NCBI RefSeq assembly: GCF_030013595.1
Contig: NZ_CP122768.1
DNA: 64,000 bases
From: Escherichia coli
GTDB lineage: Bacteria; Pseudomonadota; Gammaproteobacteria; Enterobacterales; Enterobacteriaceae
Strand: one strand, 5' to 3'
The position numbers are program-made. Position 1 is the stretch's first letter, and every line of letters begins with the position of its first letter. Shown here one piece after another: positions 49,508-52,500 of the stretch.

Positions 49508-52500
49508 ACCCGCTCCAGCATTTGAAATAAGCCTTATTGTATTGCAGCACTGGCGTATTTTTATTACGTGGGAGCAGGTTGTTTTGAAAAAGCATTCTGT
49601 TCTCTGGCTATGATTTGAGGCCAGGTTAGCCTCAGTGCTGATTTTTTTACGGCAGCAGAATGGTGCATTGCTGGTGGAGATTTTGTATTTCCTGGCAGGG
49701 TCGGTGATGCATCATTCTGGTGTTGTAAATAACACTATCGGGGCGCTCCTCAGGGCGAGGGTGGTTAAAAGAGTCGGTTTAGCGGGAAACCACAGTATTC
49801 ATACAGGACGGAATACTTCGGGAGGCACCCGACGCCTCGATTTTATTACAATTAAAAAATTCATTCCTTGCATTGACCAACCGCCGTATCTGGCGGTTTT
49901 TTTTATTCTTAATTCGAAAAAAGAAAACACGGACACTGATAATGTCCGTGTGGCAATGCCATGTAAGTCAGCGATGAATATGGCGCAAAAAAAGCGCGGC
50001 TGTCGGATTAACGCCGCGGGACAAAGTCCGTGAAGAAGAATAAGTATCGGTCTCCTTCCGGAGACGAGTTGATATTACTAAGCTTTAAAAATGGTTTAAA
50101 TCCTCAGATTGACCTTAATTTCCGGTAAGTCTTATTTCATTTTCTCCGCGCTACCTCCAGCGCACATCACATCAGGTAACGCCACACAAAAGGCATCTGC
50201 GGGTGCCTTTGACGGGTGTTTTTTTACGGGCCGCTGGTGGCCCTTTTTTATTTACAGGAGAAAAAAGTATGTCTGAACCCTTGTCCGGTTCCGGCACGGC
50301 TGCGGCGCTCGGCGGGGCGACGGTATTCGGGCTGTTTACCGGAACGGATTTCGGGATTGTGTTTGGTGCGTTCGCTGGGGCGTTATTTGTGGCAACGATG
50401 CCGCAGGCGCTTTCAGCCTGGCGTGTGGTGGCGCATTTTCTTGTGTCGTTCATTATCGGCGTGCTGGGCGCAGAGGTTCTGGCGTCCTGGCTGGTAAAGC
50501 ATACAGGGTTTGACGGTGCACCTGTTGACGCATTGTGTGCAGTACTGGTGTCAGTGGTGTCGGTGAAGATTCTGTCGTTCATCCACCAGCAGGATATCGC
50601 ATCACTGGTGTCCGGTCTGTTCTCCCGCCTGCGGGGCGGAGGAGGCGGCAATGTTAAGTAACCTTCCCGGAGTGCTGAATGTGGCGTTATGTACGGTTAT
50701 CGTGCTGACGCTCTTTTTTTATCGTCGTCGTGACTCCAGACACAAACCGCTGATGTCATGGCTGGCCTGGCTGCTGATGCTGCTTTATGGCTTTGCTCCA
50801 CTCAGCTATCTGTGTGGTCGCCCGTTAGCAACGGGCTGGCTGGAAGTGTTTTTTAATCTGCTGTTCTGCGTGCTGGTGATACGCGCACGCGGGAACGTCA
50901 CAAAAATCTTTCCATTGTTGAGGTGAATATGCCGGGTAAATTCAGATTCAGCCGTCGGAGCGAGAAAAATCTGGAGGGCGTCAAACCACAACTGGTTGCT
51001 GTCGTTCGCCGTGCCCTTGAGCTGACGGAAGTTGATTTCGGTATTACGGAAGGCCTGCGCAGTAAGTATCGCCAGAAACAGCTGGTCGCGGAAGGGAAAA
51101 GCCAGACCATGAACAGCCGCCACCTGACAGGTGATGCGGTGGATGTTGTGGCCTACATTGGCAGCCAGGTGTCATGGGACTGGCCTCTGTACGAGAAAAT
51201 CGCGCAGGCATTTAAGCAGGCTGCCGCAGAGCTGGGAACTGCCATCGAATGGGGCGGTGAGTGGCGGTCGTTAAAGGACGGGCCTCACTTTCAGCTGAAA
51301 CGATAAATAAGGCAAAGCCCCGGTTGTTGGAGCAATCGGGGCTTTGTGTTTATGGATTCATTTTGTGAATGCGCATGGGGATCATTCATGCCAGTAAAGC
51401 CTAACACGACGAAAGATAAATTTGGAGATGATCTGATGATAAAAGCAGAAACCACCCCGCAGTGGGCTGATGATGCCGCAAAAATCATCGCGGTATGCCA
51501 GGGCATCAGACACATACTGACGCCAGTTGCATGGATTATTTGTACCGCACTGGTTGCATACACAACAATTTATTTAAACAGATGAGTGCTGATTTTATTC
51601 GGGCGGTGGCTTTTGCAATTCGCCTTGTGGCGGTCGCTGTTCTGATTTGGGCTGTGCGTTGGTGGTGATATGAGCCGAAAACACTGGACACACAGAATGC
51701 CGCGAACGGCGGCGAAATGGGCACTGGTAGCGATACTGGTGCCTTTTTTATTGGTGGGGTGCGTTAGCCTGGATAAGGCGCGTCAGCTTTTCGATACCGC
51801 GTCTCAGGCCTGCCAGATTATTGATGGCGTTCGGCGGTGTTCGCAGAACTGCTCACCAACATTACAGCAGCCCTTCAGCCGAGGGGCTGCAATAATGCTT
51901 TAGTTGTCTTTCATAAATCCTTTAATGACCCATCCCACAAGCCTGGTGATGCTGTACACCAACAAGGCAATTATCAGAGATACAAGGATATCAAACAGTG
52001 AGAATCCTTGCGTATCCGTTGTTGAAAATAAAAGACTAAAGATGAACACCAGAATGGCCAACAGAATACCTACCCGGTGAAAGCCTTTAGAAATCATGTT
52101 TTTCATTTGTCCTCCATATTTGTTTTTTTAAAGGGTGGGCATTTTAACATCAGAAGGATGAAGTTCTATGCCATCACGAATCCCACGTGCCTGCCGTAAG
52201 CGTGGATGCGCAGGTACAACCACAGACAGTTCTGGTTACTGCGATAAACATCGTGGTGAAGGATGGGCACAGCATCAGCGCGGACTGAGCCGCCACCAGC
52301 GTGGATATGGCTCGAAATGGGATGCCATACGGGTGCGCATACTGAAGCGTGATAATCATCTGTGTCAGAACTGCCTGCGCAATGGGATAGCCGTTGAAGC
52401 CAGAACTGTGGACCACATCATTCCGAAAGCTCATGGTGGCACGGATGCAGACAGCAACCTGCAGAGTCTGTGCTGGCCCTGCCATAAAGCAAAAACTGCG

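What the first reader, a model, noticed from the sequence alone, without database searches (positions are those of the whole stretch)
51900..52106. Opposite-strand 68-aa two-TM protein between lysis and packaging genes
It lies in the position and orientation of lambda bor: against late transcription and likely expressed in the lysogen. Small lysogen-expressed membrane proteins here are often virulence or exclusion factors, or membrane toxins.
Basis: inference. Interest (0 to 1): 0.4.

Follow-up and report, generated by a model that had tools for sequence, protein, structure and literature searches.

The report
Prophage moron encoding small membrane hairpin
A rare, self-contained 264-bp add-on gene in an E. 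coli P27-type prophage encodes a real 68-residue two-helix inner-membrane protein from an undescribed family carried by mobile elements; its layout suggests it is made while the phage is dormant, but its function is untested.

Summary
Window 51900-52106 (-) is a genuine 68-aa gene (dN/dS 0.13-0.18; homologues down to about 30% identity). It lies between the lysis cassette and HNH/cos/terminase of a phiP27-type prophage.

It is a textbook moron:
- a ~264-bp AT-rich insert (GC 0.40 vs 0.55) that phiP27 and the closest prophage lack;
- a GGAGGA ribosome-binding site;
- a TGnTAAAAT extended -10 box held 32-35 nt upstream of the ATG in seven of nine upstream regions examined;
- a strong hairpin directly after the stop codon.

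Only 9 of 5426 complete E. coli genomes carry it; 1018 carry the adjacent HNH gene. In all 13 viral contigs analysed, homologues (42-99% identity) sit in the same slot, antisense to the late genes. They sit beside several different endolysin and terminase types, including lambda-type Nu1/A, which is exactly bor's position.

The protein is unrelated to Bor, HK97 gp15 or T4 Imm and matches no Pfam, PHROG, NCBIfam, PADLOC or PDB entry. It is a helical hairpin, predicted N-in/C-in, with conserved inner-face motifs (GFHRxG; Y-x3-R-x2-GW-x-I-x-GF) and a variable outer loop. Distant relatives lie next to parA operons.

Function is unknown. My best guess is exclusion or defence at the inner membrane. 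It is ordinary in kind with a new family: modest interest.

The parts
51900..52106 (-). CDS, 68 aa: MKNMISKGFHRVGILLAILVFIFSLLFSTTDTQGFSLFDILVSLIIALLVYSITRLVGWVIKGFMKDN. Two-TM helical hairpin, predicted N-in/C-in.
   Evidence: dN/dS 0.13-0.18; hydropathy; AF2 hairpin, pLDDT 83; homologues; family motifs; charge bias N-terminus +3.4, loop -0.8.
52110..52115 (-). Shine-Dalgarno GGAGGA, 3 nt before the ATG.
   Evidence: Sequence; invariant in all seven E. coli alleles of alignment A1.
52141..52149 (-). Predicted extended -10 promoter element TGTTAAAAT (TGnTAAAAT), 34 nt upstream of the ATG.
   Evidence: present 32-35 nt from the ATG in 7 of 9 upstream regions examined (six distinct alleles, 59-100% protein identity). 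These include L026/L028, where the flanking gene is not HNH. Invariant block. Prediction only; the generic -35/-10 scan did not list it.
52163..52168 (-). Weak -35-like hexamer TAGAAC (3/6 match), 16 nt upstream of the -10. It overlaps the HNH start codon on the other strand.
   Evidence: TAGAAC is retained in L026/L028, but the same bases also occur at the HNH start of ETEC1732, which lacks the cassette. Its role is therefore uncertain.
51858..51899 (.). Strong hairpin immediately after the stop codon (core CATTACAGCAGCCC...GGGCTGCAATAATG, 51860-51897), with no U-tract on the minus strand. Possible terminator or 3' stabiliser.
   Evidence: -25 kcal/mol, z -3.7; -25.8 kcal/mol, z -5.3 in the tcmA3 allele. 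Hairpins follow the stop in all homologues examined; the Kosakonia one is a canonical terminator with a T-run. phiP27 already has this hairpin after L33, so it predates the insert.
51900..52163 (.). The inserted cassette (moron): ORF plus 57-nt leader/promoter. Absent from phiP27 and ETEC1732, where the hairpin or spanin region abuts the HNH start.
   Evidence: Alignment A3. GC 0.395-0.40 here against 0.55-0.565 in the flanks.
50203..51306 (+). Context: lysis cassette (two holins, M15 endolysin), late strand.
51670..51903 (+). Context: lipobox ORF (LLVGC; phrog_7528), convergent with the moron and overlapping its stop by 4 nt. Here 77 aa because its usual stop is lost.
52168..52518 (+). Context: HNH endonuclease gene, divergent from the moron with a 61-nt intergenic region.
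52579..52588 (.). Context: approximate cos position, placed by homology to the annotated phiP27 cos site. The moron lies about 470 bp from the right end of the virion DNA.
   Evidence: inferred by alignment by eye, not tested.
52664..54903 (+). Context: terminase small (P27 family) and large subunits.

Best explanation
The ORF is the cargo of an autonomous moron inserted at the end of the lysis cassette of a phiP27-type prophage. This is the slot that bor occupies in lambda.

Shown by sequence:
- It is a ~264-bp AT-rich insert that related phages lack.
- It carries its own ribosome-binding site, a conserved extended -10 promoter and a 3' hairpin, all reading against late transcription.
- It encodes a protein under purifying selection that belongs to a sparse family found on mobile elements.

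Predicted: the protein is a two-helix hairpin in the inner membrane with both ends in the cytoplasm. Two conserved motifs, R-I-x-R-G-F-H-R-x-G and Y-x3-R-x2-G-W-x-I-x-G-F, lie on the cytoplasmic face. A short, variable loop faces the periplasm.

Inferred:
- The gene is transcribed from its own sigma-70 promoter in the repressed lysogen.
- Convergent late transcription damps it after induction.
- The protein, probably as an oligomer, acts at the inner membrane while the element is resident. The most likely role is protection against incoming phage or other foreign DNA, either by blocking genome entry or by a membrane-level defence. In that model the conserved inner face forms the core or engages a conserved host component, and the variable loop gives specificity.
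For: Real gene: dN/dS 0.13-0.18; 45 full-length-type hits and 168 clusters; family motifs in 146 and 145 of 152 retrieved proteins.

Moron anatomy:
- insert relative to phiP27 and ETEC1732;
- GC 0.40 vs 0.55;
- GGAGGA;
- TGnTAAAAT at a fixed 32-35 nt in 7 of 9 upstream regions, including a non-HNH flank;
- hairpin of -25 kcal/mol.

Accessory and portable: present in 9 of 5426 genomes against 1018 with the adjacent HNH. It keeps the same slot and antisense orientation in 13/13 viral loci, beside different endolysins (M15, lysozyme/Rz, GH19) and terminases (P27-type, Kosakonia-type, lambda Nu1/A).

Topology:
- positive-inside charge bias, N-terminus +3.4 and loop -0.8;
- long-loop variants with two loop cysteines;
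- fusions that continue into further membrane segments and an OB domain;
- AF2 hairpin.

Resident-state theme: distant homologues lie directly upstream of parA-RHH partition operons in three plasmid-like elements whose ParA proteins are only 34-36% identical. Their cores are near-identical but their loops give proteins of 66, 103 and 138 aa. A homologue also sits beside an Acb2/Tad1-like gene.

Precedent: morons carry their own promoter and terminator and are expressed from repressed prophages; HK97 gp15 and P22 SieA are inner-membrane exclusion proteins (PMC3594210; PMC11436027).
Against: - There is no expression data of any kind. The promoter is a prediction with a poor -35, and the generic scan missed it.
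- The hairpin lacks a U-tract on the gene's strand in the E. coli alleles and predates the insert.
- There is no similarity to any known exclusion or defence protein.
- Strongly conserved motifs across distant Proteobacteria are unusual for exclusion proteins, which tend to be lineage-specific. They fit a conserved biochemical activity or host target at least as well.
- No conserved partner gene and no defence-island association has been shown.
- The functional claim rests on analogy and context only.
Confidence: 0.4

Rival explanations
1. Small-protein modulator of a conserved host inner-membrane machine, such as a transporter, sensor, protease or translocon. It would change lysogen physiology rather than block phages, in the manner of MgrB, AcrZ or SgrT-type small proteins.
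For: Nearly invariant cytoplasmic-face residues (G8 F9 H10 R11 G13, Y51 R55 G58 W59 G63 F64) across distant Proteobacteria point to a conserved target or activity. It is a single gene with no partner. It occurs in resident-state operons of plasmids.
Against: No target is identified. It is extremely sporadic (9/5426 genomes) and always on mobile elements, which is more typical of conflict genes. The variable periplasmic loop has no obvious role in this model.
Confidence: 0.2
2. Membrane-active toxin. It would be either an abortive-infection effector that depolarises the membrane on a trigger, or an addiction (post-segregational killing) factor for the element.
For: It is a small hydrophobic two-TM protein. 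There is a weak, non-significant resemblance to a PADLOC 2TM effector (E 0.11) and to PspG (E 0.076). It sits in the maintenance regions of plasmid-like elements, next to parA and near toxin-antitoxin genes.
Against: There is no antitoxin gene, antisense RNA or sensor partner. A strong ribosome-binding site with a constitutive-type promoter would be lethal for an unregulated toxin. The conserved polar/aromatic interface motifs and the variable loop domain are not typical of type I toxins, which usually have a single TM and fewer than 60 aa.
Confidence: 0.15
3. Lysis-timing factor, either holin-like or antiholin-like, belonging functionally to the adjacent lysis cassette.
For: In every enterobacterial locus it lies at the end of a lysis cassette. 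Its size and N-in/C-in two-TM topology match class II holins and pinholins (the pinholin comparison is from my own knowledge).
Against: It is on the opposite strand with its own promoter. Fewer than 1% of genomes carrying the adjacent HNH gene have it. It travels with unrelated endolysin types. Distant homologues sit in plasmid-like elements with no lysis genes in the 6-kb flanks. There is no holin Pfam hit, and the C-terminal tail is not strongly charged.
Confidence: 0.08
4. Bor-like lysogenic-conversion virulence factor (serum resistance, adhesion).
For: It has the same slot and orientation as bor. Carrier strains include animal and human E. coli isolates.
Against: It is not a lipoprotein (no cysteine) and is not predicted to reach the outer membrane. 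The exposed loop is under 10 residues. There is no similarity to Bor (hhalign probability 0.3%). Homologues occur in plant-associated and environmental bacteria.
Confidence: 0.05
5. It is not a functional gene: a chance ORF in an AT-rich spacer.
For: There is no annotation beyond 'hypothetical protein'. There is no match in 50,697 deposited phage genomes.
Against: dN/dS is 0.13-0.18. Length, topology and motifs are conserved down to about 30% identity. The ribosome-binding site is conserved.
Confidence: 0.02

Closest known systems
Lambda bor moron (Bor/Iss outer-membrane lipoprotein)
   Same: Same genomic slot and orientation: directly after the lysis genes, antisense to the late operon, and before cos and terminase. 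Both are accessory cargo.
   Different: Bor is a 97-aa lipoprotein with a lipobox (LITGC) that goes to the outer membrane. This protein has no cysteine, forms a two-TM inner-membrane hairpin, and shows no sequence similarity.
HK97 gp15 moron (YebO-like inner-membrane superinfection-exclusion protein)
   Same: It is a stand-alone moron inside a late operon and encodes a ~60-70-aa inner-membrane protein. For gp15, expression from the prophage is shown (PMC3594210). This is the best functional analogy.
   Different: gp15 lies in the tail operon and is co-oriented with it. It has one N-terminal TM and a soluble C-terminal tail, and its relatives are confined to Enterobacteriaceae. No similarity was detected (hhalign probability 1.7%).
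T4 Imm (Imm_superinfect family) and P22 SieA
   Same: Both are small or medium inner-membrane proteins that block entry of superinfecting phage DNA. Imm is an 83-aa protein; that it has two TM segments is from my own knowledge.
   Different: No detectable homology to Imm (probability 4.5%; no Pfam hit). Imm is expressed by a lytic phage. I did not compare SieA directly.
Class II holins / pinholins (for example S21 68)
   Same: About 68 aa, two TM domains, N-in/C-in topology, and a position next to the endolysin genes.
   Different: The orientation is opposite, with an independent promoter. The gene is dispensable and rare. There are no holin family hits and no highly charged C-terminal tail. 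Homologues occur in elements without lysis genes.

Membership tests
Phage moron (definition of Juhala et al. 2000, as quoted in PMC3594210) | Extra DNA inserted between genes that are adjacent in related phages | tested here: met
   In phiP27 the hairpin abuts the HNH ribosome-binding site. ETEC1732 goes from the spanin region straight to HNH. The window has about 264 extra bp.
Phage moron (definition of Juhala et al. 2000, as quoted in PMC3594210) | Base composition different from the surrounding genes | tested here: met
   GC 0.395-0.40 across 51900-52199, against 0.55-0.565 on both sides.
Phage moron (definition of Juhala et al. 2000, as quoted in PMC3594210) | Own promoter | tested here: inconclusive
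   TGnTAAAAT is conserved 32-35 nt from the ATG in 7 of 9 upstream regions and in two different flank contexts. However, the -35 is weak, the generic scan did not report it, and there is no experimental 5' end.
Phage moron (definition of Juhala et al. 2000, as quoted in PMC3594210) | Own terminator | tested here: inconclusive
   A strong hairpin directly follows the stop, but it lacks a U-tract in the E. coli alleles and is shared with phiP27 L33. The Kosakonia homologue has a canonical terminator.
Phage moron (definition of Juhala et al. 2000, as quoted in PMC3594210) | Expressed from the repressed prophage | not testable with these tools
   Needs RNA or protein data from a lysogen.
Lambda Bor / Iss lipoprotein family | Signal peptide with a lipobox cysteine | tested here: not met
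   The 68-aa sequence contains no cysteine. Bor has LITGC.
Lambda Bor / Iss lipoprotein family | Sequence or profile similarity to Bor | tested here: not met
   hhalign probability 0.3%. No Lambda_Bor Pfam hit at E<=10.
Lambda Bor / Iss lipoprotein family | Position after the lysis genes, antisense to the late operon | tested here: met
   This is positional analogy only.
HK97 gp15 / YebO exclusion proteins | Sequence similarity; single N-terminal TM with a cytoplasmic tail | tested here: not met
   hhalign probability 1.7%. Here there are two TM helices.
T4 Imm (Imm_superinfect) | Sequence or profile similarity | tested here: not met
   hhalign probability 4.5%. None of the 33 family members hits that Pfam family.
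Superinfection-exclusion proteins (functional class) | Blocks infection or DNA entry of other phages when expressed | not testable with these tools
   Requires phage challenge assays.
Class II holin / pinholin | Two TM domains, small size, N-in/C-in | tested here: met
   (prediction).
Class II holin / pinholin | Encoded in and co-transcribed with the late lysis operon; needed for lysis | tested here: not met
   It is on the opposite strand with its own promoter. More than 99% of genomes with the adjacent HNH gene lack it.
Type I toxin / small membrane toxin loci | Cognate antisense RNA or antitoxin gene | tested here: not met
   No Rfam family matches at the locus. There is no conserved neighbouring gene across contexts.
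Known anti-phage defence systems (PADLOC-DB v2) | Significant match to a defence-protein model | tested here: not met
   Best hit is the 2TM effector at E 0.11. No family is shared among the 33 members.

The most novel reading that the evidence does not exclude
The GFHR...GW hairpin proteins are a previously unrecognised single-gene exclusion or defence module of about 70 aa, shared by prophages and plasmid-like elements across Proteobacteria. A conserved cytoplasmic-face core would form the active unit, either an oligomer or a clamp on a universal membrane machine. The hypervariable periplasmic loop would determine which incoming phage or plasmid is kept out.
Probability: 0.2. Interest if true: 0.55.

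Novelty: new member of a known kind. Interest (0 to 1): 0.3.

Why it matters
Morons in the bor slot are a classic route by which temperate phages change their hosts, and most of their small membrane cargo has never been studied.

This cassette is compact, with promoter, ribosome-binding site, 207-bp gene and hairpin all within about 310 bp. It is rare in E. coli, and it belongs to a family with very clear signature residues found on both prophages and plasmid-like elements. That makes it an easy candidate for phage-challenge, topology and mutagenesis experiments.

A positive result would add a new minimal inner-membrane exclusion or defence protein and give a name to about 170 'hypothetical protein' clusters. 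A negative result would still show what this kind of cargo is not. As it stands, this is an ordinary type of element carrying an unknown protein, not a new principle.

Tried and rejected
- **Family libraries.** Pfam, PHROGs, NCBIfam and PADLOC scans of the protein gave only non-significant hits (PspG E 0.076, 2TM effector E 0.11). Pfam and PADLOC scans of all 33 aligned family members found no shared family.
- **Solved structures.** A profile search of PDB sequences gave only E>=0.25 chance hits to reaction-centre L chains.
- **Fold search.** Foldseek of the AF2 model against PDB and BFVD returned only generic helical hairpins, none at E<0.1.
- **Deposited phage genomes.** tblastn of the protein and of two 46-47% homologues against 50,697 phage records found nothing. 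The family is absent from cultured phage genomes and is seen only in prophages and metagenomes.
- **Direct comparisons.** Profile comparison with Bor, HK97 gp15 and T4 Imm showed no relationship.
- **Partner gene.** The upstream genes in L013, L015 and L016 are unrelated to each other.
- **RNA families.** Rfam at relaxed threshold found nothing at the locus.
- **Promoter scan.** The generic promoter/terminator scan found neither the promoter nor the hairpin. Both were found by comparative alignment instead.
- **Locus searches.** The search for related loci with the broad alignment failed because no block was conserved enough. Narrower alignments gave 16 viral loci for the enterobacterial subfamily and 2 for the distant one.
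- **Literature.** Searches by accession number and by topic found no paper on this protein. The Gifsy defence protein GiPD474 is an unrelated ATPase.
- **Not run.** I did not run the genome contigs or metagenome-contig scans. I judged they would not resolve function.
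Full report
**1. The observation**

The minus-strand ORF at 51900-52106 exists as described: ATG start, TAA stop, 68 aa. 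It has two hydrophobic segments, roughly residues 12-28 and 36-57, separated by the polar loop STTDTQG.

On the + strand upstream lie two holin genes, an M15 endolysin and small spanin-candidate ORFs. On the + strand downstream lie an HNH endonuclease gene, the cos region, and the small and large terminase subunits. This follows from Pfam hits and from the PGAP annotation of near-identical prophages.

The prophage is of the phiP27 (Stx2e phage) type. It is integrated next to ypjA in an E. coli chromosome.

**2. It is a real gene**

An ORF of 68 codons is not evidence on its own, so I looked for selection and relatives.
- Two E. coli allele groups (68 aa and 66 aa; 87% nucleotide identity) differ mostly at synonymous sites: dS about 0.4, dN about 0.06, dN/dS 0.13-0.18.
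- An exhaustive phmmer search of 1.8 billion cluster representatives found 45 proteins at E<1e-3. Most are 66-77 aa and align end to end.
- A profile search found 168 clusters.
- All are unnamed ('hypothetical protein') and none carries a Pfam domain.

**3. Anatomy of the cassette**

- Read on the minus strand, the ATG is preceded by GGAGGA (52115-52110). An extended -10 element, TGTTAAAAT (52149-52141), lies 34 nt upstream of the ATG.
- The stop codon is followed at once by a hairpin of -25 kcal/mol (51858-51899; z -3.7).
- The segment is AT-rich: GC 0.40 against 0.55-0.565 on both sides.
- Alignment with relatives shows the insert. phiP27 has the same hairpin at the end of its gene L33 and then runs straight into the HNH ribosome-binding site. 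ETEC1732, the closest prophage overall, also lacks the ORF.
- The unit is therefore a ~264-bp insert (about 51900-52163) consisting of the ORF plus a 57-nt leader.
- The TGnTAAAAT box lies 32-35 nt from the ATG in seven of the nine upstream regions I examined, which represent six distinct alleles sharing 59-100% protein identity with the window. These include L026/L028, where the flanking gene is not HNH. That argues the box belongs to the cassette and is under selection.
- The Kosakonia, L011 and L036 homologues have other -10-like boxes. All homologues examined have a hairpin after the stop, and the Kosakonia one is a canonical terminator.
- Caveats: the -35 is weak (TAGAAC, 3/6). The generic promoter scan did not report the site. 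The E. coli hairpin has no U-tract on the gene's strand and predates the insert. There are no expression data.

**4. Distribution and the slot**

- Only 9 of 5426 complete E. coli genomes contain the cassette, whereas 1018 contain the adjacent HNH gene. It is a rare accessory of this phage type.
- Its position is nonetheless very stable. In the E. coli genomes examined and in 13 of 13 IMG/VR loci with homologues of 42-99% identity, the gene lies just after the lysis cassette on the strand opposite to the lysis and packaging genes.
- The neighbouring modules differ: M15 endolysin with P27-type terminase; M15 endolysin with a lambda-type Nu1/A terminase (L026-L029); lysozyme/Rz with a different terminase in a Kosakonia prophage; and a GH19 endolysin, with an Acb2/Tad1-like gene next door.
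- The lambda-type case reproduces the bor arrangement of lambda itself.
- No deposited phage genome (50,697 records) contains the gene or its 46-47% homologues.

**5. The protein family**

- Alignment of 33 members, and a wider set of 83, shows two signature blocks: R-I-x-R-G-F-H-R-x-G before the first helix, and Y-x3-R-(A)-x-G-W-(I/V)-(I/V)-x-G-F at the end of the second.
- 146 and 145 of the 152 retrieved proteins match loose versions of the two motifs. The per-column frequencies in that call come from motif-selected sequences and are therefore somewhat circular.
- The N-terminal segment is basic (mean net +3.4) and the loop slightly acidic (-0.8), so the positive-inside rule predicts both ends in the cytoplasm.
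- Two observations agree with that topology. Variants of 138-156 aa have a 70-90-residue insertion in the loop containing two cysteines, as expected for a periplasmic domain. Longer fusions continue from the C-terminal motif into further membrane segments and an OB-fold (tRNA_anti-like) or DUF2569 domain.
- AlphaFold2 with the family alignment gives a simple helical hairpin (pLDDT 83).
- Fold and sequence searches against PDB and viral models return nothing specific.
- The conserved part of the protein is therefore the cytoplasmic face of the hairpin, and the variable part is the periplasmic loop.

**6. Contexts of distant relatives**

- Outside the enterobacterial prophages there is no conserved partner gene.
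- There is one recurring context. In three plasmid-like or phage-plasmid-like elements the gene sits directly upstream of a parA-RHH partition operon, with a SWIB-domain gene nearby.
- The ParA proteins of these elements are only 34-36% identical. The hairpin cores are nearly the same, while the loops give proteins of 66, 103 and 138 aa.
- Other copies lie near resolvases or a CI-like repressor.
- The common theme is a gene positioned to be expressed while a mobile element is resident in the cell.

**7. What it most likely does**

- Shown: it is a real, selected, portable cassette antisense to late transcription, and it encodes a membrane hairpin.
- Inferred: transcription from its own promoter in the lysogen, inner-membrane location, and an N-in/C-in topology.
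- The function is not established. I rank protection against incoming phage or foreign DNA at the inner membrane (entry exclusion or a membrane-level defence) first. The reasons are:
  - prophage morons of this design with small inner-membrane products have that role in the best-studied cases (HK97 gp15, P22 SieA, T4 Imm);
  - the gene is sporadic and confined to mobile elements;
  - a conserved core with a variable exposed loop is what a conflict protein would look like.
- The main point against is that no similarity to any known exclusion or defence protein was found. In addition, the strongly conserved motifs across distant bacteria fit a conserved host target or an intrinsic activity at least as well.
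- Rivals, in order:
  - a modulator of a host membrane machine;
  - a membrane toxin or abortive-infection effector (no antitoxin or sensor found, and the ribosome-binding site is strong);
  - a lysis-timing factor (wrong strand, dispensable, travels with unrelated lysis genes, and present in elements without lysis genes);
  - a Bor-like virulence factor (not a lipoprotein, almost nothing exposed, and found in environmental bacteria).

**8. Comparison with the known, and novelty**

- As a genetic element it meets the tested criteria of a moron (insertion and composition). The promoter and terminator criteria are met only by prediction.
- It works like bor in position and, perhaps, like gp15 in function, but it is a member of neither family. 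The defining features of both were tested and not met.
- The protein family itself is undescribed in Pfam, NCBIfam, PHROGs, PADLOC, PDB and the searchable literature.
- I therefore class it as a new member of a known kind of element. Interest is modest: a specialist would not be surprised by the finding, but the family is clean, small and easy to test.

**9. Limits**

- All statements about expression, localisation and function are predictions.
- Context statistics for distant homologues rest on about ten loci.
- The large genome and metagenome scans were not run.
- SieA was not compared directly.

Noticed in passing
window 46242-47339 (-): This is a 365-aa ORF on the strand opposite to the late genes, just downstream of the Q-antiterminator-like gene (45669-46052). 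Its counterpart in the near-identical ETEC1732 prophage is annotated 'porin OmpC'. It looks like a second antisense moron in the same prophage, a phage-borne porin.
   Followed up: no
window 51670-51903 (+): The lipobox ORF (LLVGC; phrog_7528) is 57-60 aa in relatives but 77 aa here. A deletion removed the L33-like gene (phrog_1935) and changed the usual TGA to TGC. The ORF now reads through the hairpin and overlaps the moron's stop codon by 4 nt. It is unknown whether the extension affects a spanin-like function.
   Followed up: partly
L006 (E. coli STEC308, NZ_CP091020.1) 2937-3185; the same in STEC306 and STEC307: This is a prophage remnant whose left end lies inside the 3' end of the small gene, directly next to hyaA. 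The ORF is annotated as an 82-aa protein with an unrelated C-terminus.
   Followed up: no
L011 5662-5898 (= L035), JGI 3300011848: A gene with an Acb2/Tad1-hairpin Pfam hit (the anti-CBASS/anti-Thoeris sponge fold) lies on the late strand, immediately beside the homologue of the small gene. The lysis-to-terminase junction may therefore be a hotspot for defence and counter-defence cargo.
   Followed up: no
L015 6001-7651; L037 6001-7474; L038 5294-7356: In plasmid-like elements (L037 comes from a contig whose name suffix '_c' suggests a circular 37-kb contig) the family member lies directly upstream of parA and an RHH gene, with a SWIB-domain gene adjacent. The synteny holds although the ParA proteins are only 34-36% identical. 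The loop of the small protein gives sizes of 66, 103 and 138 aa.
   Followed up: partly
proteins P0020, P0032, P0043, P0045, P0074, P0125 (138-156 aa): These are long-loop variants of the family, with a 70-90-residue insertion between the two helices. The insertion contains two cysteines in a recurring '...C...GCS...' pattern, suggesting a disulfide-bonded periplasmic domain.
   Followed up: partly
window 49443-49517 (+): A phage-borne tRNA-Gly (TCC) lies upstream of the lysis cassette, as in related P27-type prophages. The following 132-aa ORF (49635-50033) occupies the place where other relatives carry TerB-family and DUF3927 genes.
   Followed up: no
L003 (E. coli tcmA_3) 1482-2996: In this relative the same junction holds six extra small late-strand genes annotated as hypothetical. 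The three scanned match phrog_2571, phrog_4280 and phrog_1935. This shows that the region between the endolysin and HNH is highly variable cargo space.
   Followed up: partly
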